A DNA stretch of 64,000 nt from a virus, in UHGV virus genome UHGV-0036853; one strand, 5' to 3'. Positions 25,819 to 64,000 of this stretch are shown here, one piece after another. Each line of letters opens with the position of its first letter. Positions within the stretch are counted from its first letter, which is position 1. The position numbers and the translations under genes were made by a program. The notes beneath the pieces are model-generated. The model saw only the letters and a program-made list of their open reading frames with translations, did not search any database and was not told the DNA's origin.

Positions 25819-26178
25819 TCAGCCTTTTTTCATGAGTTCTCGCTTGATTTCATCGGTACGCATCGTTACATCGGCAGCTGTGATCGCCTCGTTAAGTTTC
25901 ACGATGTCCTCGATTTCCTGCGGTGTCTTCTCCGCAAGATGGAAAATAGCAGCACGAATCACATCAGAGCGGGTGAATTTCTCGAAGCGAGGGATGAACT
26001 TCATCATCTCCAGCAGTTCGAAGTATTCGTCTTCCAGTGACATTGTGCGGCTTTTAATTTTCTCTTTGCCACGAGTCGGGCGTCCCTGTGGTCTGACTGG
26101 TTGGCGCAAAGGAGTTGTGTTCTTAGCCGGTGCATCAGGCTCTTTGCGCTTTGCTAGGTCACCCATTTTCATGGACAT
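25819..26178 (-). CDS. small partition protein (ParG/ParB-like centromere-binding candidate)
   Basis: 119-aa basic ORF immediately downstream of parA with overlapping stop/start. Confidence 0.45.
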   Translation of the reverse strand: MSMKMGDLAKRKEPDAPAKNTTPLRQPVRPQGRPTRGKEKIKSRTMSLEDEYFELLEMMKFIPRFEKFTRSDVIRAAIFHLAEKTPQEIEDIVKLNEAITAADVTMRTDEIKRELMKKG

Positions 26179-26846
26179 TATTCTTCTTCCTCCAGACTCA
26201 ACAGATAATCTACAAATTCTTCAAACTCGGCTTCCGCCTTTTTGTCGCGCTCGCTACCGGTCATTTCAAAGATAGAACGACCAGACTCTTCCGCATCATC
26301 GTAGACGTTGCGGTTATATAGATTGACAGGCGCAGACTCGATGCCAAACGTCTCAACAATCTCTTTAGCCGCCAGAATGCGAGACACTTGTGATGGCAAA
26401 GCCGGGCACTGGTTCATGACCGCGCGGACCTTCACTTTATCGTTTACATTGCGAACATTGTCGATAATAGGATCGATGTCACGTAAAGATTTCAAATCAC
26501 GACGCTTAGGACGCAGCGGGATAATGATAACGTCGGCCATCAGCATCGCTTGTCGCTGAATTTCGGAGTCAAAGCCACCAGCATCTACCACTACAAACTC
26601 AGCTCTACCCTGAAGCGATTTTAGGTGCTTAATGATGTCATCCTGAACGTATGCAAAAGGAATCAGCTCAAGATCTTCGTTCTGTCGACGGTCTTCACAC
26701 CAGCTTGTTGTAGTGCGCTGAATATCTATATCAGTGATATAAACCTTCTTCTTCTTTTTGACTTTCAGGCAAACGGCAATTTGCTGGGCAACAGTAGATT
26801 TGCCAGGCCCGCCCTTTGTGCCGCCAACCACAAAGATCTTGGTCAT
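26178..26846 (-). CDS. parA: ParA-family partition ATPase
   Basis: 222 aa; deviant Walker A GGTKGGPGKST; ParA/Soj layout. Confidence 0.8.
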   Translation of the reverse strand: MTKIFVVGGTKGGPGKSTVAQQIAVCLKVKKKKKVYITDIDIQRTTTSWCEDRRQNEDLELIPFAYVQDDIIKHLKSLQGRAEFVVVDAGGFDSEIQRQAMLMADVIIIPLRPKRRDLKSLRDIDPIIDNVRNVNDKVKVRAVMNQCPALPSQVSRILAAKEIVETFGIESAPVNLYNRNVYDDAEESGRSIFEMTGSERDKKAEAEFEEFVDYLLSLEEEE

Positions 26847-46957: not shown

Positions 46958-48214
46958 CTATCGAGAACCACCAAGAATAACACGGTTTTTGACTGGATAC
47001 CTACGATGTACTGGATAGCCCAATGCGTCTGCACTATGCTCAATGCCACCTGTCTTATCCATATCTCGTGTTCCAGGCTTGTAGATGACTTTTTCCAGTG
47101 AATCAATCAAATGCTTGCACTTCGGATCGATATACAACCGGATATCTCCAGATGCGGTCATCAGCATTCGGTTAACAGCATTAACACGATCCGCAATTGG
47201 CGGGTGCTTTTTCGAATAATCGACACGTAAGAATCCCTTCTCTTTGAAAATGTCGACGTCAGACTCCCCGCGAGCATGTTGGCGATAAGCACCTGCCGGA
47301 TCTGGAAATACCGTTATCTGTGATTTCCAGCGCCAGAAGCGTCTCTCAAGCTCATCACAAACCTCTGCCGTGTTAGAGGAAAAGAGCACCAATTCATCAA
47401 TTGCCCATAGCTCGCCGTTTGGCTGAGGTTGCAAAATTACGGAAGACATCGGGTCAATGTTGAAGTCCTGTCCTACCCATATAGGCAACCGAGGGTTGAA
47501 TTGAAGCGGTTTAACATGCACGTTACGATCGAACGGGTAGTAAACGCGACCGGACATGTTCTCAAAGCTGGCTAGGTACTCCTGAGCGAACGATTTGGGG
47601 TCCATATCGTTCTTAGCAGCTTCAATTTCCGCCGTAGGTACAAACGGAGAATCGGCAGTTACAAACTGCCAGCTCTTCCACTGTCCCTTTCGTTGCAGCT
47701 CTACGTTCTGACCTATAGTCCACAGTTTGTGAAATTCCGAGAAGCCTTTTGGCGTTCCAATGATCAGTGCACCGCCGCGTGTCGATGAAAGAGTTGGTCG
47801 TAGTACCTTGTACCAGGTATCAGCCTTCATATCCTGAAATTCATCAAGCACTACAAAATGCAACGCAACGCCGCGCAGAGTGTCAGGCTTATCAGCACCT
47901 TTAAGGGCGATCTCCGAACCGTTCTTCAACACGATTGTCATCGTGGTGTCGTTCTTTTTCCTAACCCACTTACGAGGCAGAACTTCCTGTAGATCGTCCC
48001 ACAAAATCTGACGAGCCATCTGATAAGTCGGGGCGACATACCAGACCCTTTGCTTTTTTTCCTTTGCAGCCGCACGAATAATAGTTGAGATCGACAACCG
48101 GGATTTCCCCCAGCGTCGACCAGCACAAACAACTTTAAATCGATGCGGTGACTGGAAGACTTTCATCTGTCCAGAATGCAACTGCACAAGACTTAGAGAG
48201 GACGGGATTGCCAT
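46958..48214 (-). CDS. terminase large subunit
   Basis: 418 aa; Walker A-like VVCAGRRWGKS; ATPase then nuclease layout. Confidence 0.85.
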   Translation of the reverse strand: MAIPSSLSLVQLHSGQMKVFQSPHRFKVVCAGRRWGKSRLSISTIIRAAAKEKKQRVWYVAPTYQMARQILWDDLQEVLPRKWVRKKNDTTMTIVLKNGSEIALKGADKPDTLRGVALHFVVLDEFQDMKADTWYKVLRPTLSSTRGGALIIGTPKGFSEFHKLWTIGQNVELQRKGQWKSWQFVTADSPFVPTAEIEAAKNDMDPKSFAQEYLASFENMSGRVYYPFDRNVHVKPLQFNPRLPIWVGQDFNIDPMSSVILQPQPNGELWAIDELVLFSSNTAEVCDELERRFWRWKSQITVFPDPAGAYRQHARGESDVDIFKEKGFLRVDYSKKHPPIADRVNAVNRMLMTASGDIRLYIDPKCKHLIDSLEKVIYKPGTRDMDKTGGIEHSADALGYPVHRRYPVKNRVILGGSR

Positions 48215-48846
48215 TATTCGTCCTCCCCTTCACTTCCATCATCTGTCGCATCAAATTCGCTTAGAGCTTCTTCTTCCAAAGTCTCAAGCAATTCGTCATC
48301 GATGATTTCAGGCTCGTCGTCTTCCTGACGTAATTTCGCCACCTGGGAAGGTGTAAGCTCACCAAATACCAAGTTCGGAATTTCTTCCTCGTCATTTTCT
48401 GCATGATCCATACCCAACGCTTTGGACGAAACTTCAAAGCATTTTGCAAGGGTATTACTTGCTCTCTGTAAGCTCTTGAGAGAATCCTCAATCGCCCCTA
48501 AAGGCTTACCCTCACGTTTGGCCGTAGTGACTTCGACCATCACCATCTGCCCCAACGCATACGCCCAGCCGTCATAACGTGTACGACGTTCTTCTATCTT
48601 TTCCGCACGGGCTTTAGCGCGAAGCTCTGCGTCAGATTTAAGAGACTCACGAACCATCTTCCCAACAGAGTCCGCGCCTTTCTCTAATCCTCGCTTTTTG
48701 AAATGTCTGGAGAGTGTTTCACGACGAATGCCGTACTCTTCCTCCAGCTTTGAGAGTGTATATTCGCCTGACGTCCATTTGGCTTCAGCTTCGGCCCACT
48801 CAGCTGGTGTCAGGCGAGTTTTTACCTCGTCTTTTTCGACCGTCAT
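48214..48846 (-). CDS. terminase small subunit
   Basis: 210 aa; N-terminal HTH-like segment, acidic C-terminus, stop overlaps the large-terminase start. Confidence 0.6.
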   Translation of the reverse strand: MTVEKDEVKTRLTPAEWAEAEAKWTSGEYTLSKLEEEYGIRRETLSRHFKKRGLEKGADSVGKMVRESLKSDAELRAKARAEKIEERRTRYDGWAYALGQMVMVEVTTAKREGKPLGAIEDSLKSLQRASNTLAKCFEVSSKALGMDHAENDEEEIPNLVFGELTPSQVAKLRQEDDEPEIIDDELLETLEEEALSEFDATDDGSEGEDE

Positions 48847-48940: not shown

Positions 48941-49030
48941 AGGTCTGGGCATATCTTACTAAGCCTGCTTCCGTATATATTTAATAAGTTACTTATTATT
49001 TATATATACAGAAGCAGGTCTTTAAATAAG
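48941..49030. repeat. AT-rich palindromic element, copy B (nested inverted repeats)
   Basis: Core cctgcttccgtatatatttaataagttacttattatttatatatacagaagcaggtc matches 25722-25812; outer arms ggtctggg / cccagacc. Confidence 0.6.
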
Positions 49031-54139: not shown

Positions 54140-54393
54140 CATTTCGCATTCCCTCCATCCGCCAATTCCAAGATGTGCTTACTTGTAAAAGGAGCACATC
54201 AATTGATGCGGCCTAGAGAATGAATTTAATCAAGACAAACATTGAATGATTAATAGACTACGATAGTGTCCAACAGGGCATTCTCATGTGACATTTGTCA
54301 CATTTTTAACCGCATAAGTCTCCGGCTGAAAAAAGTTCTTGATTGGCTGAATGATATTTGTAGGCTTATCAATGTTTATAGCCGGAGGTGTGA

Positions 54394-54936
54394 ATGGGTG
54401 TACTTGACATTGATAGTAATTACTTAAGTGCAAGGCGAATAAAGGAATGTGTTCATATCTATTGTAAATCAAAGCAGTCTTGTTTAGAAAAGCAGGCGTA
54501 CCTAACATCTTCTCAAAAAGGAGAGCACAAACTCATCAAATATAAACTAAAGGCTTCGCGCAAAGATCGTTATGAGCACTATATATACGTAAAGGATATT
54601 GAAGGTACCAAGACAAATTGCGGTATTATCTTTTATCCCTATGATATATCAAGACTGTTCTCCATTATGAAATCCTGTGTCGGCGTAGCTCCAGGTAAAT
54701 TAGAGTTGCATTCAAACTTATACGATTACCCAAATGCTCAAAAACTGATAAACGATAGCACTTCGTCCTATGGATTTTCGTTTCTCTTTAAGAATCATCT
54801 CGCATTGAAAGATTTCATCGAAAAATACAATGAAGGAATAATATCAGGCGAATTAAATTTCAACAAAATCTGCGGAGATATAAAAAGGGACGACCTCTTA
54901 ATAGATATTTACAACAGAACCCAAGTTAACGTGTAA
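54394..54936 (+). CDS. hypothetical protein (AT-rich island)
   Basis: 180 aa; strong RBS GGAGG; AT-rich codon usage. Confidence 0.55.
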   Translation: MGVLDIDSNYLSARRIKECVHIYCKSKQSCLEKQAYLTSSQKGEHKLIKYKLKASRKDRYEHYIYVKDIEGTKTNCGIIFYPYDISRLFSIMKSCVGVAPGKLELHSNLYDYPNAQKLINDSTSSYGFSFLFKNHLALKDFIEKYNEGIISGELNFNKICGDIKRDDLLIDIYNRTQVNV

Positions 54937-54963
54937 CCATCCATTAATCATAGCCAGACAAAT

Positions 54964-55383
54964 ATGAAAGTAACAAACCTAATTATTTTAACACTAGCCA
55001 CATCACTAATTGGGTGTTCATCTTCATCTATATCTGTTTCAAAGGCAAAGTATGCACCTCAAAGCAGAATATTTAAATATCAAACACCACATGAGTCTAG
55101 TCTAACAATAGTTAGAGACAAAGGGCTGGTTGGTTCTGGATGTAACGCTTCCATATTCATCAATGGAGAAACGGCAGCAAAATTGGAACCTGGTGAAAAA
55201 GCAACTTTCTATCTTAATGAAGGAGATTGGATCGTTGGGACATCAATTGAAAGTTCAGGTCTTTGCGCATTTAACCCCTCTAGGATGGAGCGAGAAATAA
55301 AACTAAAGCAAGGCGACGCGAAAACATATCGGGTTTTCACTACCTGGGATGGTACAATGGATATATTGCCAACCACTTTATAA
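54964..55383 (+). CDS. lipoprotein (AT-rich island)
   Basis: 139 aa; signal with lipobox LIGC. Confidence 0.55.
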   Translation: MKVTNLIILTLATSLIGCSSSSISVSKAKYAPQSRIFKYQTPHESSLTIVRDKGLVGSGCNASIFINGETAAKLEPGEKATFYLNEGDWIVGTSIESSGLCAFNPSRMEREIKLKQGDAKTYRVFTTWDGTMDILPTTL

Positions 55384-55387
55384 TGAT

Positions 55388-55912
55388 ATGACGACGAAAG
55401 ACATCACCTACGGTGTGCCAGCAGAAGTCTGGCCTCGAGATTACACTAACGTTGAAAAACTACTGATGTTCTGGCGCAGAGAACAAATTCCTGTAAGGGC
55501 CACTCTCGAAGATGGTCAGGCGTTTTGCATGTACGTTTATGGCCTCATGCCATCTCGTAACAAAGTTGACCTTTGCCCAGCCCCTTTTGACAAAGAAAAT
55601 CGTATAAGGCTCCCAATTGAACGCATTAGTACAATTGAATCAGGTGTGGTTGACAGTATCGCTCACGATTTCAAAGGTCGACTAACAGTTCACCCTGATT
55701 ATGTCGATAATCGGCCATCACGCCGCGATTTTTTTGCAATTTGCAACCAAGCCTACAAAGCAAACAAATCTATAAGGGTGTACATGGCGGATGGCCGTGA
55801 AATTGAGGGGGTGTCAGCAGGCGCAGATGCTTGTCAGGTTACACTACGTGTCGAGAACGGTAGAAAAATAGTTGTTTTGTTCGATTGGGTTGAACGAATT
55901 TTGCCTTTTTGA
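55388..55912 (+). CDS. hypothetical protein (AT-rich island)
   Basis: Start set to ATG at 55388 (MTTKD...) just after the upstream stop; track ORF begins at 55349. Confidence 0.5.
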   Translation: MTTKDITYGVPAEVWPRDYTNVEKLLMFWRREQIPVRATLEDGQAFCMYVYGLMPSRNKVDLCPAPFDKENRIRLPIERISTIESGVVDSIAHDFKGRLTVHPDYVDNRPSRRDFFAICNQAYKANKSIRVYMADGREIEGVSAGADACQVTLRVENGRKIVVLFDWVERILPF

Positions 55913-55915
55913 GTT

Positions 55916-56224
55916 ATGAAATCGATATTGTTACCACCATTATTTTTACTTTGCTCAGTTGCGGCAAATGCAATGGACTATAAGCCTGTCATTCAGTCGC
56001 TGATGAATGACGTGTGCTCAACGTCTCAGAATGTATCAGTTTGCATGTATCAATTTTCGGCAGCCGTAAAAGCAGGAAAAGCGATAGGTGAGAATGTGGA
56101 ACTGTGTAAGAAAGTGGCAAATGAAGAACGAGCAATGTTGGATTGCGAATCTAGCGAGTCATCGGCACAGTTCGTTGATGCGCTATTTGACACCAATCGT
56201 AAGGCTGTAGAGTCTGTCCAATAA
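55916..56224 (+). CDS. secreted Cys-containing small protein
   Basis: 102 aa; signal peptide MKSILLPPLFLLCSVAANA; 6 Cys in mature part. Confidence 0.5.
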   Translation: MKSILLPPLFLLCSVAANAMDYKPVIQSLMNDVCSTSQNVSVCMYQFSAAVKAGKAIGENVELCKKVANEERAMLDCESSESSAQFVDALFDTNRKAVESVQ

Positions 56225-56237
56225 ATCTATAAGGTTA

Positions 56238-56262
56238 ATAACCGGCTAAGTCCGGTTATTAT
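56238..56262 (+). terminator. rho-independent terminator
   Basis: Hairpin ataaccggctaagtccggttat followed by tatttttc. Confidence 0.6.
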
Positions 56263-56507
56263 TTTTCACATCACTTCTTTATATCTATAAATCAAATAAT
56301 CTAAATATATATAAGGTCGAAAGCCGTAATCGATTATTTATTTAGGGAACACCTTCGACGATCTCGCTTTTATTTCTAGGACTTTCATCCCTGCAAAAAA
56401 TTTTAAAAAAACACTTGCAATCTTTTTTCGCGTATCGATAATTGAACTCGTCGAAAGCGAAGACGCTAACGACAATAAATTTTAAATTTACATAAGGAAA
56501 AATTATC

Positions 56508-57158
56508 ATGGCTAACATTATCATTTCTAAAAAATCCATCATTGAAGCTGCTTCCATTGTATCCGATGAACTGCGCGAAAAAGCAGATCTGGCAACTCAA
56601 ACATATAACGAACATTATAAAAATGGTACGCACACTAAAGCAGACAAAGCAAATATGCAAGCTGCGACCACTAAACTTGCTTACTTCATCAACAACGTCG
56701 TAAACGCAGTAGAAGACGAAAAATTATGCTCTGTTTTCTACTATGCGATTAAAGCAAGCAAACAAGCGCCAGAAGTATTTTTCCGTGATGCAATGACTAA
56801 TAGTTATTCACTGGAAAAACTGGTTTATCTGGTTAAATCCATTAAAGCTGGTAAATGCGTTTATTCCGTCGCTGATATGTCAGGATCTCGTGTATTCGCT
56901 TTAATCGATATGATTAACGACGAGATCGACACGTTCACTAATGGCGCTGTTTTCGATTTAATGAATGAAGCTAAAAAAGCGTGCGAAATTAAATTGGACG
57001 CTGGCTATACTCAAGCCAACCAGTTGATCAATCTTTGCGAACGTCTCGGACTTGTTGAGAAAGTCAAAGGAGCTGGGAGCGCAAAAGCTGGTACTCAGCA
57101 ATATCGCTTCATTAAAAATGATTTCTACAATTATTTAGCTGATGCTTTCAAAGCGTAA
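56508..57158 (+). CDS. hypothetical protein
   Basis: 216-aa ORF with upstream AT-rich promoter region. Confidence 0.5.
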   Translation: MANIIISKKSIIEAASIVSDELREKADLATQTYNEHYKNGTHTKADKANMQAATTKLAYFINNVVNAVEDEKLCSVFYYAIKASKQAPEVFFRDAMTNSYSLEKLVYLVKSIKAGKCVYSVADMSGSRVFALIDMINDEIDTFTNGAVFDLMNEAKKACEIKLDAGYTQANQLINLCERLGLVEKVKGAGSAKAGTQQYRFIKNDFYNYLADAFKA

Positions 57159-57206
57159 TTAATGGAATCAAGCGCCCACTATGGGCGCTTTAAAGGAGCT
57201 TTAAAA

Positions 57207-57431: not shown

Positions 57432-57662
57432 ATGTTTGTTCTTATCGCTGGCGTTAACGTCCATAATGAATATTATGTTAATCGCATCGCTGGGATCGCT
57501 GGTTACGCTGGGCGCTCAGTCGAGCTTATAGATGAAACGACGCGCAAAATTGACTTATTGAGCGACCAGGAGCGAAAAAAAGCAGACGTGAACGACGCTG
57601 ATATATTTTTAATGTTAAAAGCGTTTGTAGAAATGGGATTTGAAATCAGTTTACATAAATAA
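57432..57662 (+). CDS. hypothetical small protein
   Basis: 76-aa ORF followed by a strong terminator. Confidence 0.4.
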   Translation: MFVLIAGVNVHNEYYVNRIAGIAGYAGRSVELIDETTRKIDLLSDQERKKADVNDADIFLMLKAFVEMGFEISLHK

Positions 57663-57667
57663 AATCG

Positions 57668-57694
57668 AGCGCCCACTATGGGCGCTTTTTTCGT
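57668..57694 (+). terminator. rho-independent terminator (same hairpin repeated at 57171-57189)
   Basis: agcgcccactatgggcgct followed by ttttttcg. Confidence 0.7.
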
Positions 57695-58150
57695 TTCCAA
57701 TACTTCCACCATAACGCGCCATCATTGGCGCGTTTTTTATTGTCTTTGACTCACTCCAACAACATAAAAATAAGCGCCAAAATAACGCCATAGACGCGCT
57801 TTTATATCCTTGCCAGTACATACCCATTACTTAACGCATTAACGCGCTTAAAACGCGTTATATTGCGCTATAACGTATGGCTAATCATTAATTTTTATTC
57901 TTGCTATGTGATCCGCGTTTATTTGTCGGCGCGGATCGGCATTTTGTGTTGTTCTGTGTCCGCTCGCGTATTATGTGCGCGTGATTTTTCACATAATCAC
58001 ACCACTTAATCACGTATGTGATTACGCTACGAAAGAAATCTGGATGTCTCAGGCGACGAAAGTCATCATGATTTTCCCCGCTCGCCTGTCCGACAACCGC
58101 TGGTTGGATTCCACCAGCTTCCCGATGTTTTTTCTACATAAAGGCGAATG

Positions 58151-58266
58151 CAGCCGTTTCCCGAAAAAATCCTGGCCGTTTCCCGTCGGCTCATGAATAC
58201 GTTCCTCGCCGTTTCTGAAAATTTCCCTGCGGCAGCTGGTGGCTATAGAGAAAGGGCCGTTTCTGG
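58151..58266. repeat. iteron-like direct repeats GCCGTTTC(C/T), four copies
   Basis: cagccgtttcccg (58151), tggccgtttcccg (58173), cgccgtttctg (58207), gggccgtttctgg (58254). Confidence 0.5.
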
Positions 58267-58278
58267 CCCTCTTCTCAG

Positions 58279-58761
58279 TTACACGCCATCAAGGATGTGG
58301 ATGCGGTTGCTTGTGTATACATTCAACATAAAGTTAGCGCAAAACAGTTTCCATGTATCAACGCCAGCGGTATACGTAATGTTTTTGCATTTAATTGCAT
58401 TGTTGGCGATCCGCATCCCCTGCGATACTGCTTCATCGTCGGAAAATTTGAACGACGATTGAGTTTTAATCCAGACAGAAATCTGCGTAGCGAACTCAAT
58501 CAGCTTGGACTGGCAGAATCGCCCGGAGCGCACCGGAAAGACGAACGTTCCGAATCCAGAATTTACCACATACGCTTTCTCAAATACCCGCGAGTAACGA
58601 CGATTGCCAATGATGTCGCGTGCAATAATGCATTTTTCTTGTGCTGACAGTTCTACCGTCTCATTGTCGCGCCATGCACCAAGTACTCGTTTTTCAATGT
58701 CAGAGAACGTTACAGCGATATTGCCATGTGCGGGTGCGTTTACAGTAGCGATAAAATTCAT
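58279..58761 (-). CDS. hypothetical protein (right-end small-gene array)
   Basis: 160 aa; RBS AAGGA; class II motif at 58781-58816 upstream. Confidence 0.5.
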   Translation of the reverse strand: MNFIATVNAPAHGNIAVTFSDIEKRVLGAWRDNETVELSAQEKCIIARDIIGNRRYSRVFEKAYVVNSGFGTFVFPVRSGRFCQSKLIEFATQISVWIKTQSSFKFSDDEAVSQGMRIANNAIKCKNITYTAGVDTWKLFCANFMLNVYTSNRIHILDGV

Positions 58762-61392: not shown

Positions 61393-61780
61393 AAAGCAAT
61401 CCTTAAACAACATGTTTTCTTATTGGTGTTATTATCGCAATAACACACAGGCGAAAAAGGATTTTATTCCGGTGAATGTGGTTTTGGCAGTGAGTTTTCA
61501 GGTTCAGTACCGAGTACAATTTTTACATTATTCTGATTTAGTGGCCGAAGATGGCTGGTGGGCAGAATAATCCTCTCCCCGAAAACCTACTGAAATCGAT
61601 TGTGACCCGCTGGCTGTCTGGCACAATTACGCTGTAGCTGGGCATTCAGAGGGAATCCAGCGGTAAGTAAGTCCGCCTGCACGTGAGCGTCTCTCTCCTT
61701 CCCGCACATTACAGGTGGGCAGCCGCAACTCTCCCTCACGCTATACCGGTACGCCACCGTTCCTGAACCGGCATCGAACC

Positions 61781-61900
61781 TTTTCCCGAAATCCACACAG
61801 GCAACTCGACCGTTTCCCTGAAAACCTCCAGCCGTTCCCCGAAGGCAACCCAGCCGTTTCTGTAGCGGGATGCAGCCTTTTCCCTGTATGGACCGAAGGC
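61781..61900. repeat. degenerate ~22-bp tandem repeats CC(G/T)TTTCCC(T)GAA, about six copies
   Basis: ccttttcccgaaa, ccgtttccctgaaaa, ccgttccccgaagg, ccgtttctgtagcg, ccttttccctgtatg read directly. Confidence 0.5.
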
Positions 61901-62965
61901 TGACCGTAGGGGTGTTACGGGGGATAAAATCAGGAGTTGAATAAATACGAAAAAGGAGGCGACACCCCTCCTTCCCTCCCCACTTATACATACCTGGCTT
62001 CTTCGCTATACATGTTGTGTTTTATTCGTGTTTTATCTGTCTCAACCTCTCTATAGGCGTTAATGCTCACTCCTTCCAGAGCGTTCTATACGGCGACTAT
62101 TCCTGTTGGTGAATTGGGTGTGTTGTTCTCTCTGTCGGTGTAAATGGTTTCGTTCGTTTTGCGGTGGTTCTTCTGTGGGGGTGTTCTCGTCGTTTTGGTG
62201 ATTGTTCTTCTCCGTGTATGGAGTAATGGCAGGTGGGCGATTCCTTTCGTTATTGTGTTTGAGTTGTTTGTCTGGAGTGCGTGAAGGGCTTTTGTAGTTA
62301 TTCGTGTATTGGGTAATGGCGTTTCCCGTGATTGTTATGTTTCGTGTCTTTTGGGATTGAGAGAATCCTTGCGGTTACAGGCTTCGTTGGGTTTTCAGTG
62401 ATTCTGGTGTTCTTCGCTGTTTGGGGAATGGCGTGTCGTGGGTATCGCGCGTGTGAATGTTTTCGGATTGCCTGTGAAAGTTAGGTTGGTTGTCCGGTAG
62501 CCTGGGAAGAAGAGGTGGGTCTTTTCGGTGGCCTGCCATAAAGAGGTTGGTTGTTTTTGGGAATGGCATGTGTGTTATTTAGTTGTTTTGTTATGCCTGA
62601 AAATAAGTTGTTTATATGGTTGTGTAACGCAACGGGAGCGATTTTGAGCGTGTGTTTTTGTTGGTAGTGTGTTGAGTTGTCTGTGGTGAAAATTGGACGC
62701 TGTGGAGCTGTCTGCTGCGTAGGATTACGGGTATAAGAAGTGATGTGTGAAAACGTCAATTTTTTAGACCAAATCGGGTGAAAGCGTTGACGTTTCGTTG
62801 ATCTGTTATTCAGTTGTTTTCTTGTTTGTATAAACAACTATAACCTATTGATATTTAAGGATGTGATTGCAGGCATGGAAGGGGAGTAGTGGCGATCAAC
62901 GGATTCTTATAGAAAAGAATCAAATTGTGACCGCCATTATCAACGGTTTGAATATGTTTTCAGAT

Positions 62966-63425: not shown

Positions 63426-64000
63426 TTACTTAACCTGGTGGCCTGGTTTAGCGCCAGCATCCGGGCTTAACAGGAAGATATCTTTCCCGCCAGGGCCAGC
63501 AGCCATCACCATGCCTTCGGAGATACCGAAGCGCATTTTACGCGGAGCCAGGTTAGCCACCATAATGGTGTGACGACCAATCAGTGCCTGTGGGTCTGGA
63601 TAAGCAGAACGGATGCCTGAGAAGACATTGCGTTTTTCACCACCGAGATCCAGTGTCAGACGCAACAGTTTGTCAGAACCTTCAACAAACTCCGCGTTTT
63701 CAATCAGCGCCACACGCAGGTCAACTTTGGCGAAGTCGTCAAAGGTGATGGTTTCCTGAATCGGGTCGTCAGCCAGTGGGCCAGTTACCGGTGCGGCTGT
63801 GGCTTTCACTTCTTCTTTGGATGCTTCCACCAGTGCTTCCACCTGTTTCATATCGATACGGTTATACAGTGCTTTGAACGGATTCACTTTATGGCTCAAC
63901 AGCGGTTGCTGAATACCATCCCAGGTCAGTTCTGTATTCAGGAATGCTTCTGCACGTTCAGTCAGTTTCGGCAGTACCGGTTTCAGGTAAGTCATCAGCA
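63426..64000 (-). CDS. metG: methionyl-tRNA synthetase, C-terminal portion (gene continues beyond the right edge)
   Basis: Translation ...[122 protein letters not shown] matches the E. coli MetG C-terminus as recalled. Confidence 0.85.

What the first reader, a model, noticed from the sequence alone, without database searches (positions are those of the whole stretch)
57663..58278. 600-bp non-coding region with GCCGTTTCC iterons, AACGCG repeats and DnaA-box-like inverted repeats: candidate origin
Between the plus-strand island terminator and the first small minus-strand gene lie four GCCGTTTC(C/T) direct repeats (58151-58266), an AT-rich tract with repeated ttaacgcgcttaaaacgcgttatattgcgc (57830-57870), and cacataatcaca / tgtgattacg inverted repeats (57990-58030). 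Iterons plus an AT-rich segment are the classic signature of a theta-type or phage-plasmid origin; the same iteron core recurs at 61781-61900.
Basis: partly seen in the sequence, partly recalled or inferred. Interest (0 to 1): 0.5.

Follow-up and report, generated by a model that had tools for sequence, protein, structure and literature searches.

The report
Conserved repeat array between convergent terminators
This 616-bp gap in an SSU5/pHCM2/pMT1-type phage-plasmid holds real, strongly conserved direct repeats that look like protein-binding sites, but it is not the plasmid's replication origin, which lies beside repA elsewhere; what the repeats do is still unknown.

Summary
The window is an SSU5/pHCM2/pMT1-type phage-plasmid. 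The finding lies in a non-coding gap between two convergent operons.

**What is confirmed**
- The GCCGTTTC repeats are real: 4 copies in 110 bp, against 2.3 expected in the whole window.
- Their core is invariant across family lineages whose neighbouring protein is only 30% identical.
- A paralogous six-repeat array in 22-bp register lies 3.6 kb away, at 61757-61884.

**What argues against a plasmid origin**
- The AT-rich/AACGCG tract and the "DnaA-box-like" repeats are lineage-specific and no better than chance as origin elements.
- The canonical origin is elsewhere. About 15 RepA iterons (TATGCTGTCAGCGGT), a GATC-rich tract and a DnaA-box-like site flank repA in a related plasmid whose copy of this gap is 98% identical. 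No such iteron occurs in the window.
- The repeats persist in a lineage with a different replicon type.

**What the region looks like**
- The array is flanked by two plus-strand terminators about 410 bp to its left and an adjoining minus-strand terminator on its right.
- It folds no better than shuffled sequence, has no Rfam match and no consensus promoter.

**Best reading (confidence 0.35)**
- It is a binding array for an element-encoded DNA-binding protein. The adjacent winged-helix protein is the candidate.
- It works together with the second array, possibly in phage-mode replication.

Packaging-site, insulator and RNA readings remain open.

The parts
56508..57158 (+). 216-aa protein (p216), the candidate binder of the repeats. 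It is found only in this element family and has a C-terminal winged-helix domain.
57667..57693 (+). Plus-strand intrinsic terminator 1: hairpin GAGCGCCCACTATGGGCGCTT followed by T6.
   Evidence: Terminator scan. Invariant stem in all relatives, with loop variants. The same hairpin occurs at 57172.
57713..57740 (+). Plus-strand intrinsic terminator 2: hairpin AACGCGCCATCATTGGCGCGTT followed by T6.
   Evidence: Terminator scan. The stem is conserved while the loop varies: CATCATTG, CATTGTTG, CAACAATG.
57741..58127 (.). Lineage-specific spacer. It holds the AACGCG palindromes (57832-57860), a hairpin (57909-57938), a -10-like TATTAT (57970-57975), the TAATCAC boxes (57981-58026) and one relaxed DnaA box (57985-57993).
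   Evidence: Only 35-39% identical to the distant lineage, which is random level, against 67% for the terminators and the repeat module. No conserved ORF. No consensus sigma-70 promoter on either strand.
58111..58118 (-). Chi site (GCTGGTGG on the minus strand). It forms an inverted repeat with the Chi at 58235, and the pair brackets the array.
   Evidence: I5. Present in most relatives but at a shifted position. Absent in the distant lineage.
58146..58232 (+). Repeat module. Repeat 1 is GCCGTTTCCCGAAAA (58153), repeat 2 is GCCGTTTCCCG (58175), repeat 3 is GCCGTTTCTGAAAA (58208), and the box TTTCCCTGCGG lies at 58222-58232. Start-to-start spacing of the repeats is 22 and 33 bp.
   Evidence: for the statistics. 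GCCGTTTCCC followed by (G/T)AAAA is kept in all 16 non-redundant relatives, with one substitution in one of them. Mean column conservation is 0.85, and identity to the distant lineage is 67%, against 53% for the adjacent gene. Not more structured than shuffles on either strand.
58235..58242 (+). Chi site (GCTGGTGG).
   Evidence: TGGTGG is invariant among 13 relatives, but the full octamer is lost in 3 of them.
58247..58269 (-). Minus-strand terminator of the 160-aa gene: hairpin GGGCC-AGAAAC-GGCCC followed by TTTCTCT. Its loop carries the fourth GCCGTTTC copy.
   Evidence: Sequence. Compensatory stem change to GGGGC/GCCCC or GCGCC/GACGC in relatives, with CGTTTCC kept in the loop. RNAalifold pair 133-146 is GC in 6 sequences and CG in 3. 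The simple scan did not list it.
58279..58761 (-). 160-aa gene (PHROG 1641, function unknown). It is the last gene of the long minus-strand gene set and abuts the array.
   Evidence: Syntenic in all relatives. Only 30% amino-acid identity in the distant lineage.
61757..61884 (+). Second, paralogous array (B). Six repeats CC(G/T)TT(T/C)CC at 61757, 61779, 61810, 61832, 61854 and 61876, spaced 22, 31, 22, 22 and 22 bp.
   Evidence: Conserved in E. coli, Enterobacter, Citrobacter, S. Typhi pHCM2 and SSU5 with six copies, and in Klebsiella and Buttiauxella with three. Absent from one pMT1 copy that has an IS-associated deletion. Only the repeats are shared between A and B.

Best explanation
**Shown**
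- The region is the junction of two convergent operons of an SSU5/pHCM2/pMT1-type phage-plasmid.
- It consists of two tandem plus-strand terminators, a ~390-bp lineage-specific spacer, and a ~100-bp module.
- The module has three direct GCCGTTTC(C/T) repeats (spacing 22 and 33 bp) plus a TTTCCCTGCGG box.
- The minus-strand terminator of the neighbouring gene closes the module. Its loop carries a fourth copy of the repeat.
- The repeat module and the terminators are the only parts conserved across all lineages.
- A second array of six repeats in 22-bp register lies 3.6 kb away. The two arrays have the same orientation and bracket a cassette of separately promoted small genes.

**Inferred**
- The repeats are double-stranded-DNA binding sites for a sequence-specific protein encoded by the element. 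The adjacent family-restricted winged-helix protein p216 is the best candidate.
- The protein oligomerises on one face of the helix.
- The flanking terminators keep the array free of through-transcription.

**Most likely role (inference, partly by elimination)**
- The two arrays are cis-acting sites of phage-mode replication or its control. They would work like P4 ori/crr, SPP1 oriL/oriR or P1 oriR/incA, where one initiator binds two separated repeat clusters.
- Array B is the better origin candidate and this region is the accessory site.
- This region is not the RepA plasmid origin.
For: **Repeats and their conservation**
- The repeat statistics are far above chance.
- The repeat core GCCGTTTCCC(G/T)AAAA is kept across 16 non-redundant relatives. 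The relatives include a lineage whose flanking p160 is 30% identical.
- The module is 67% identical to that lineage, against 35-39% for the spacer and 53% for the p160 gene.

**Second array and distribution**
- The second array has a 22-bp register and is conserved across the family.
- Motif clusters occur only at these two places in 103 kb of a related plasmid.
- Apart from a few spaced repeats in the GT-rich tract next to array B, the only other multi-copy repeat arrays in the element are the RepA iterons.
- The module is found only in SSU5-like elements among 185,579 species genomes.

**Evidence for a DNA-level site**
- There is no stable fold on either strand: z = +1.27 and +0.73.
- There is no Rfam match.
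- There is no consensus promoter.
- No sRNA was called here in pMT1 RNA-seq (PMC3770706).
- Terminators flank the array on both sides.

**Candidate binder and biological context**
- p216 has a winged-helix domain with an invariant recognition helix, and it co-occurs with the array.
- The element carries its own replisome genes: DnaE (per a relative's annotation), a DnaB-like helicase, a primase and a ligase. No lytic origin has been identified.
Against: - No binding or replication data exist.
- No conserved AT-rich unwinding element, DnaA box or IHF site adjoins the array.
- The array is about 31-50 kb from the helicase/primase and DnaE genes.
- The conserved core is short, 9-15 bp.
- One pMT1 copy lacks array B. 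This is uninformative, because pMT1 replicates from RepA.
- A replication role is chosen largely by elimination.
Confidence: 0.35

Rival explanations
1. Transcriptional boundary or insulator. A protein bound to the phased repeats acts as a roadblock or loop anchor. The two arrays isolate or co-regulate the 3.4-kb cassette of small, separately promoted, operator-controlled genes, in the way lambda OL-OR looping encloses the immunity region.
For: - The array is flanked by plus-strand terminators to its left and abuts a minus-strand terminator on its right, at the meeting point of two convergent operons.
- Arrays A and B bracket the cassette in the same orientation.
- Each cassette gene has its own promoter plus a shared palindromic operator AAACAANTTGTTT.
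Against: - No promoter overlaps the arrays.
- Direct repeats in 22-bp register are more typical of initiators or centromeres than of operators.
- The terminator next to array B is not conserved in SSU5-type members.
Confidence: 0.2
2. DNA-packaging recognition site. The repeats are binding sites for the small terminase subunit or for the ParB-like proteins encoded beside the terminase genes, working like the R sites of lambda cosB.
For: - The repeat core CGTTTCC is identical to the core of lambda R3, R2 and R1 (ggcgtttccg, gtcgtttcct), read directly from NC_001416 1-240.
- There are 3-4 sites over ~110 bp, a layout like cosB.
- Two ParB_N proteins, ABC-type ATPases and a DNA-binding putative TerS are encoded 6-9 kb away.
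- Inward-facing Chi sites flank the array.
Against: - TerL is of the Terminase_6N/Terminase_3 type, not GpA. The putative TerS has no similarity to Nu1.
- The array is 9.3 kb from terS.
- A 53-bp AT-rich palindrome lies directly upstream of terS and is a nearer candidate.
- There are two arrays, and all repeats are direct.
- No IHF consensus or cosN-like dyad is present.
- A shared 7-mer could be coincidence.
Confidence: 0.12
3. Non-coding RNA. A plus-strand transcript would start at the conserved -10-like element (57970-57975) and run through the repeats as an antisense RNA to the 160-aa gene. Alternatively, a minus-strand RNA would carry GGGAAACGG motifs as a protein sponge.
For: - A -10-like hexamer (TATTAT, TATCAT, TATGAT, or TGGTACAAT in the distant lineage) sits at the same place in all lineages.
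- One hairpin downstream of it tolerates a G-U pair only on the plus strand.
Against: - No consensus promoter was found and there is no Rfam match.
- The spacer is not conserved between lineages.
- The module folds no better than shuffles, and RNAalifold found almost no covariation.
- No sRNA was called here in pMT1 RNA-seq.
- In the window itself the -10-like hexamer lies in the loop of a terminator-like hairpin.
Confidence: 0.1
4. Plasmid partition centromere or incompatibility site for the element's ParA system.
For: - Phased direct repeats in a transcription-free pocket are typical of centromeres.
- The centromere of the type Ib-like ParA (26178-26846) and its 119-aa partner has not been located.
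Against: - The arrays lie 31 kb from the par genes.
- The repeats are unchanged in lineages that differ in replicon type.
- From my own knowledge (Youngren et al. 2000, not checked here), pMT1 has a P1-type parABS with its own parS.
Confidence: 0.06
5. One reading: the theta-type plasmid origin of the element.
For: Direct repeats in ~22-bp register, and a mildly AT-rich neighbouring tract.
Against: - The canonical RepA origin lies beside repA elsewhere and uses a different iteron.
- That iteron is absent from the window.
- The repeats persist with a different replicon type.
- The DnaA-box and AT-tract features are at chance level and not conserved.
Confidence: 0.03

Closest known systems
Iteron arrays of RepA-type plasmid origins and their control loci (P1 oriR/incA, F ori2/incC). 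The element's own RepFIB-type origin is of this kind.
   Same: Short direct repeats with a conserved core of about 9-15 bp and a variable spacer, in 21-22-bp register and all in one orientation, present as two separated clusters.
   Different: The sequence is unrelated to the element's RepA iteron (TATGCTGTCAGCGGT). The array is not next to a rep gene. No conserved AT-rich element or DnaA box adjoins it. It persists when the replicon type changes.
Dual repeat clusters of phage origins: P4 ori plus crr, and SPP1 oriL plus oriR (recalled from established literature, not tested here).
   Same: Two clusters of the same short direct repeat lie kilobases apart. In those phages one phage-encoded initiator binds both.
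   Different: No initiator has been identified here. The arrays are not inside or next to a replication gene. No replication evidence exists.
Lambda cosB R sites bound by gpNu1.
   Same: The core CGTTTCC is identical. There are three to four sites within ~110 bp of a tailed-phage genome (one search compared).
   Different: The terminase is not lambda-like. All sites are direct. No IHF or cosN element is present. The array is 9 kb from terS and is duplicated.
Face-to-face intrinsic terminators at convergent operon junctions.
   Same: Two plus-strand terminators and one minus-strand terminator, with conserved stems, variable loops and compensatory stem changes.
   Different: Terminators alone need less than 100 bp. 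Here they flank a separately conserved repeat module, and one hairpin loop itself carries the repeat.

Membership tests
Iteron-type theta plasmid origin (RepA/RepFIB, P1 oriR-like) | Iterons match those bound by the element's Rep protein and lie beside the rep gene | tested here: not met
   About 15 copies of TATGCTGTCAGCGGT flank repA in NZ_CP014490, whose copy of this 616-bp gap is 98% identical. No match with 2 or fewer mismatches occurs in the window. The finding is 38 kb from repA.
Iteron-type theta plasmid origin (RepA/RepFIB, P1 oriR-like) | Three or more direct repeats in roughly two-helical-turn register | tested here: met
   Spacing is 22 and 33 bp in this region. Array B is spaced 22, 31, 22, 22 and 22 bp.
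Iteron-type theta plasmid origin (RepA/RepFIB, P1 oriR-like) | Adjacent conserved AT-rich unwinding element | tested here: not met
   The lowest GC is 33% in 100-bp windows at 57800-57899. This tract is at random-level identity between lineages.
Iteron-type theta plasmid origin (RepA/RepFIB, P1 oriR-like) | DnaA boxes and/or an IHF site | tested here: not met
   One relaxed DnaA box at 57985-57993. The window holds 5 against 7.7 expected, and the box is not conserved. No IHF consensus lies in the region.
Iteron-type theta plasmid origin (RepA/RepFIB, P1 oriR-like) | Supports autonomous replication when the initiator is supplied | not testable with these tools
   Needs cloning into a suicide vector.
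Lambda-type cos (cosB) | Repeated R sites with the CGTTTCC core | tested here: met
   Lambda 1-240 read directly and compared with the repeats.
Lambda-type cos (cosB) | Nu1-family small terminase and GpA-family large terminase | tested here: not met
   TerL matches Terminase_6N/Terminase_3. The putative TerS has no Pfam family. BLASTP against Nu1 gives E = 9.8.
Lambda-type cos (cosB) | Site lies directly upstream of terS, with an IHF site and a cosN dyad | tested here: not met
   The array is 9.3 kb from terS (48214-48846). No IHF consensus. Another palindrome sits upstream of terS.
Intrinsic (Rho-independent) terminators | GC-rich hairpin followed by a T tract, with the stem kept through compensatory change | tested here: met
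   57667-57693 and 57713-57740 on the plus strand. 58247-58269 on the minus strand has a compensatory stem change.
Known structured RNA family (Rfam) | Covariance-model match at the gathering score, or covariation-supported structure | tested here: not met
   No hit at gathering score. Only chance-level hits on the terminators. Covariation term is +0.04 kcal/mol. Fold z-scores are positive.
Partition centromere | Repeat array adjacent to the par operon and bound by its centromere-binding protein | tested here: not met
   The ParA-like gene is at 26178-26846, 31 kb away. Binding is not testable here.
Dual-cluster phage origin (P4 ori/crr, SPP1 oriL/oriR type) | Two separated clusters of the same repeat | tested here: met
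   Arrays at 58153-58216 and 61757-61884 share only the repeat.
Dual-cluster phage origin (P4 ori/crr, SPP1 oriL/oriR type) | Repeats bound by the phage initiator and required in cis for phage replication | not testable with these tools
   No initiator identified. Needs ChIP or EMSA and marker-frequency analysis.

The most novel reading that the evidence does not exclude
The two GCCGTTTCC arrays (58.15 kb and 61.8 kb) would be the cis-acting sites of a so far unidentified phage-mode replication system. The system would include the 1-kb strand-asymmetric, repeat-containing non-coding tract next to array B. It would belong to the SSU5/pHCM2/pMT1 phage-plasmids and be driven by a family-specific winged-helix protein (p216). 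It would be separate from, and interchangeable with respect to, the RepA plasmid replicon. That would define the switch point between plasmid-mode and phage-mode replication in a clinically widespread element family.
Probability: 0.2. Interest if true: 0.6.

Novelty: new member of a known kind. Interest (0 to 1): 0.38.

Why it matters
SSU5-like phage-plasmids are common in Klebsiella, E. coli, Enterobacter and Salmonella. Matches were found in 784 PLSDB plasmids and in 239 of 5,426 complete E. coli genomes. The family includes Y. pestis pMT1 and S. Typhi pHCM2, and members carry resistance genes.

Their plasmid replicon is recognisable from sequence. I found no description of their lytic origin, their packaging site or the control of their early gene cassettes in the papers searched.

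Two short arrays are conserved more strongly than the neighbouring genes, so they are concrete, testable candidates for one of these missing cis elements. The work also removes a false lead: this region should not be annotated as the plasmid origin.

Tried and rejected
- **Rfam**, at gathering score and at relaxed E-value, gave only chance-level hits on the terminators.
- **RNAalifold and single-sequence folding** of the module on both strands found no stable or covarying structure beyond the terminator.
- **Protein coding** was rejected. The ORFs in the gap differ in frame and length between relatives, and PGAP calls are inconsistent.
- **Lambda cosB membership** was rejected. The core motif matches, but the terminase families do not.
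- **DnaA, IHF and sigma-70 consensus scans** found nothing above chance inside the region. I looked by eye for sigma-54, sigma-E, sigma-32, XerCD/dif-cer and Ter motifs and saw no convincing match (inspection only).
- **Cumulative GC skew** over 103 kb of a related plasmid is monotonic, follows gene orientation, and says nothing about origins.
- **Start coordinates of deposited phage genomes** (SSU5, Cyrano) lie at terS. This looks like convention, so it gives no information on physical ends.
- **Neighbouring proteins** gave no functional family in Pfam or NCBIfam. PHROGs gave only unknown-function families, plus one uninformative label for the 82-aa protein.
- **p216** had only a chance-level hit (E = 0.73) in a PDB sequence search and no significant BFVD fold hit.
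- **Literature searches** on origins, termini and sRNAs of SSU5, pHCM2 and pMT1 found nothing about this region. The two pMT1 sRNAs of PMC3770706 map elsewhere.
- **The afdb50 fold library** was unavailable.

Full report
**Identity of the element**

The 616-bp query matches 239 of 5,426 complete E. coli genomes, always on plasmids of about 110 kb, at 95-99% identity in most. It also matches 784 PLSDB plasmids of Klebsiella, Escherichia, Enterobacter, Yersinia, Salmonella, Citrobacter and Cronobacter, 757 of them typed non-mobilizable. It matches phages SSU5, Cyrano, PhiR41_1 and several Klebsiella phages. The window is therefore an SSU5/pHCM2/pMT1-type phage-plasmid.

The annotation of a related plasmid whose copy of this gap is 98% identical (NZ_CP014490) shows tail, capsid, portal and terminase genes. 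It also shows DnaE, a DnaB-like helicase, a primase, nrdAB, metG and one RepB/RepA-family plasmid initiator.

**The observation**

The region is a true non-coding gap between convergent genes. A plus-strand 76-aa gene ends at 57662 and a minus-strand 160-aa gene ends at 58279.

GCCGTTTC occurs four times in 58153-58263, against 8 in the whole window and 2.28 expected. Six copies of CC(G/T)TT(T/C)CC lie at 61757-61884, spaced 22, 31, 22, 22 and 22 bp. A local alignment shows that only the repeats are shared between the two sites.

The other two elements of the observation are weaker.
- The 'AT-rich tract' has 33-41% GC.
- AACGCG is locally dense, but mostly as arms of hairpins and palindromes.
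- The TAATCAC inverted repeats exist, but only one relaxed DnaA box is present (57985-57993). That is no more than chance.

**Comparative anatomy**

I fetched the orthologous locus from 12 diverse relatives. A scan of IMG/VR for the repeat pair gave 55 distinct orthologous regions, which reduce to 16 at less than 93% identity.

Synteny is constant: a 216-aa gene, zero to two small genes, a ~600-bp gap, then the 160-aa gene.

One distant lineage (loci L032, L053, L116, L127) has a p216 homologue at 61% amino-acid identity and a p160 homologue at only 30%. It keeps the same architecture:
- tandem hairpins GCGCCCAnnnnGGGCGC followed by T6;
- about 400 bp of unrelated sequence;
- GCCGTTTCCCGAAAA, then CCGTTTCCC, then GCCGTTT(C/T), then TTTCCCTGCGG;
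- a hairpin whose loop holds CGTTTCC.

Block by block, identity of the window to that lineage is as follows:

| Block | Identity |
|---|---|
| Terminators | 67-70% |
| Repeat module | 67% |
| Spacer | 35-39% |
| p216 gene | 66% |
| p160 gene | 53% |

The functional core is therefore the terminators plus the repeat module. The AACGCG tract and the TAATCAC/DnaA-like repeats are lineage-specific.

A further Klebsiella lineage has a different replicon type (rep_cluster_2469 instead of IncFIB). It still has CAGCCGTTTCCCGAAA and CCGTTTCCCTGCGGC at site A and a repeat cluster at site B.

Among one genome per species for 185,579 species, the module occurs only in SSU5-like contigs.

**Where the plasmid origin is**

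In the related plasmid, repA (84157-85371) is preceded by a DnaA-box-like ATATCCACA, a GATC-rich stretch and about four iterons. About eleven more iterons follow it. All have the form TATGCTGTCAGCGGT in 21-bp register. This layout recalls P1 oriR/incA (comparison from my own knowledge, not tested here). It lies 38 kb from the finding and just outside the window.

No such iteron occurs in the window, even with 2 mismatches allowed. Together with the replicon-swap lineage, this rules out the repeats as RepA iterons or RepA control sites.

**DNA site or RNA?**

- Rfam gives nothing.
- The module folds no better than shuffles on either strand: z = +1.27 on the minus strand and +0.73 on the plus strand. 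Array B gives -1.34 and +0.54.
- RNAalifold finds only tiny invariant stems and the terminator hairpin. Its covariation term is +0.04 kcal/mol.
- No consensus sigma-70 promoter lies in the gap.
- A -10-like hexamer is conserved at 57970-57975, but in the window it sits in the loop of a terminator-like hairpin.
- Published Y. pestis RNA-seq lists two pMT1 sRNAs, and both map elsewhere (PMC3770706).
- Two strong plus-strand terminators lie about 410 bp to the left of the array. In SSU5-type members a further hairpin plus TTTTCT sits directly before it.
- The minus-strand terminator hairpin lies on the right. Its stem shows compensatory change while its loop keeps the repeat.

Phased direct repeats with an invariant core and variable spacers, held in a pocket with terminators on both sides, point to a duplex-DNA binding array.

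**Who might bind**

**Which function?**

A phage-plasmid needs several cis sites. I considered each in turn.

- **Plasmid origin.** It is accounted for beside repA.
- **Partition centromere.** A ParA-like ATPase with a 119-aa partner lies at 25.8-26.8 kb, 31 kb away. A centromere role for this array is therefore unlikely.
- **Packaging site.** The repeat core CGTTTCC equals the core of lambda cosB R3, R2 and R1, which I verified on the lambda sequence. However, TerL here is of the Terminase_6N/3 type and the putative TerS is unrelated to Nu1. The array is 9.3 kb from terS, is duplicated, and lacks IHF and cosN features. A 53-bp AT-rich palindrome also lies right upstream of terS. I keep this as a rival at about 0.12.
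- **Transcriptional boundary or loop anchor.** This role, around the small-gene cassette between A and B, is plausible at about 0.2. Each cassette gene has its own promoter and a shared palindromic operator.
- **Phage-mode replication.** Apart from a few spaced repeats in the GT-rich tract next to array B, A and B are the only multi-copy repeat arrays in the element besides the RepA iterons. The element carries its own replisome genes, but no lytic origin is known. Two separated clusters of one repeat are the pattern of P4 ori/crr, SPP1 oriL/oriR and P1 oriR/incA (from established literature). I therefore commit, at low confidence (0.35), to a phage-mode replication or replication-control site. 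Array B would be the more origin-like partner: it has six repeats, followed by a conserved block and a ~0.9-kb strongly strand-asymmetric tract. No step of this functional assignment is shown. All of it is inference.

**Verdict**

The 'plasmid origin' interpretation is wrong in its specific form. The repeats are a genuine, conserved and uncharacterised cis element. Interest is moderate. I found no description of it in the literature searches run here.

Noticed in passing
window 61414-62965: A 1.4-1.5-kb non-coding segment conserved across the family (72% mean column identity among 9 relatives). Array B is followed by a conserved block and a ~0.9-kb tract with extreme strand asymmetry: GC skew up to +0.65 and AT skew down to -0.8, GT-rich on the plus strand. 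The tract contains G(T/G)(A/G)ATGGC(A/G) repeats at 62223, 62313, 62425 and 62560. An inverted repeat AAACGTCAA/TTGACGTTT lies near 62752-62799. A possible minus-strand promoter TTGACG-N17-TTATAC is near 62760, and a minus-strand terminator is at 61976-61950, so a ~750-nt CA-rich RNA is conceivable.
   Followed up: partly
window 13176, 24852, 26882, 48887, 48912, 58782, 59267, 60017, 60920, 61405, 62601, 63279, 63330: The palindrome AAACAANTTGTTT occurs 13 times against 0.56 expected. Those examined lie just downstream of -10 elements or in the 5' leaders of the small minus-strand genes and upstream of terS. One more lies just upstream of parA. It looks like a shared operator of an unidentified global regulator of the element.
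   Followed up: partly
whole window; e.g. 8542, 8647, 8801, 58111, 58235, 58941, 59420, 61554: Chi (GCTGGTGG) occurs 18 times against 1.24 expected, which is about host-chromosome density by my recollection (not checked here). Three copies lie within 270 bp inside the large ORF that corresponds to dnaE. Several lie in non-coding hairpins. Pairs tend to face inward around short segments (58111-/58235+ and 58941-/59420+).
   Followed up: partly
window 57172-57188 and 57669-57685; L127 1509-1527, 1755-1773, 1802-1820: The same terminator hairpin GCGCCCACTATGGGCGC is reused at several gene ends. It is identical in a lineage whose neighbouring proteins are only 30-61% identical, which is unusually strong conservation for a terminator stem and loop.
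   Followed up: partly
window 48965-49017: A 53-bp near-perfect AT-rich palindrome (ctgcttctgtatatataaataataagtaacttattaaatatatacggaagcag) lies directly upstream of the putative small terminase gene. It is followed by two copies of the AAACAANTTGTTT operator. It is a candidate packaging or late-control site.
   Followed up: no
window 58153-58264 compared with lambda NC_001416 49-170 (L136): The repeat core CGTTTCC is identical to the core of the lambda cosB R3, R2 and R1 sites bound by gpNu1, although the terminase proteins of this element are unrelated to lambda's.
   Followed up: yes
window 16923-17924 and 63426-64000: The element carries a cluster of four tRNA genes (Ser-TGA, Thr-TGT, Tyr-GTA, Asn-GTT). 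It also carries a methionyl-tRNA synthetase gene, annotated metG in relatives and followed there by apbC.
   Followed up: no
window 54200-56300; loci L005, L011, L015: The plus-strand island to the left of the 216-aa gene is the variable cargo locus of the family. Gene content differs between relatives, and IS5-like, IS30 and IS630-like elements are inserted there. The 216-aa gene and the non-coding gap form its conserved right-hand border.
   Followed up: no
L104 (IMG/VR contig, 7293 bp), reverse strand 2789-2837 and onward: A more distant element carries a B-like cluster of three CCGTTTCC repeats followed by a strand-asymmetric CTG-rich tract. It lies next to a weak homologue (27% identity) of the window's 131-aa gene. 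The pairing of array and skewed tract therefore extends beyond the SSU5 family proper.
   Followed up: partly
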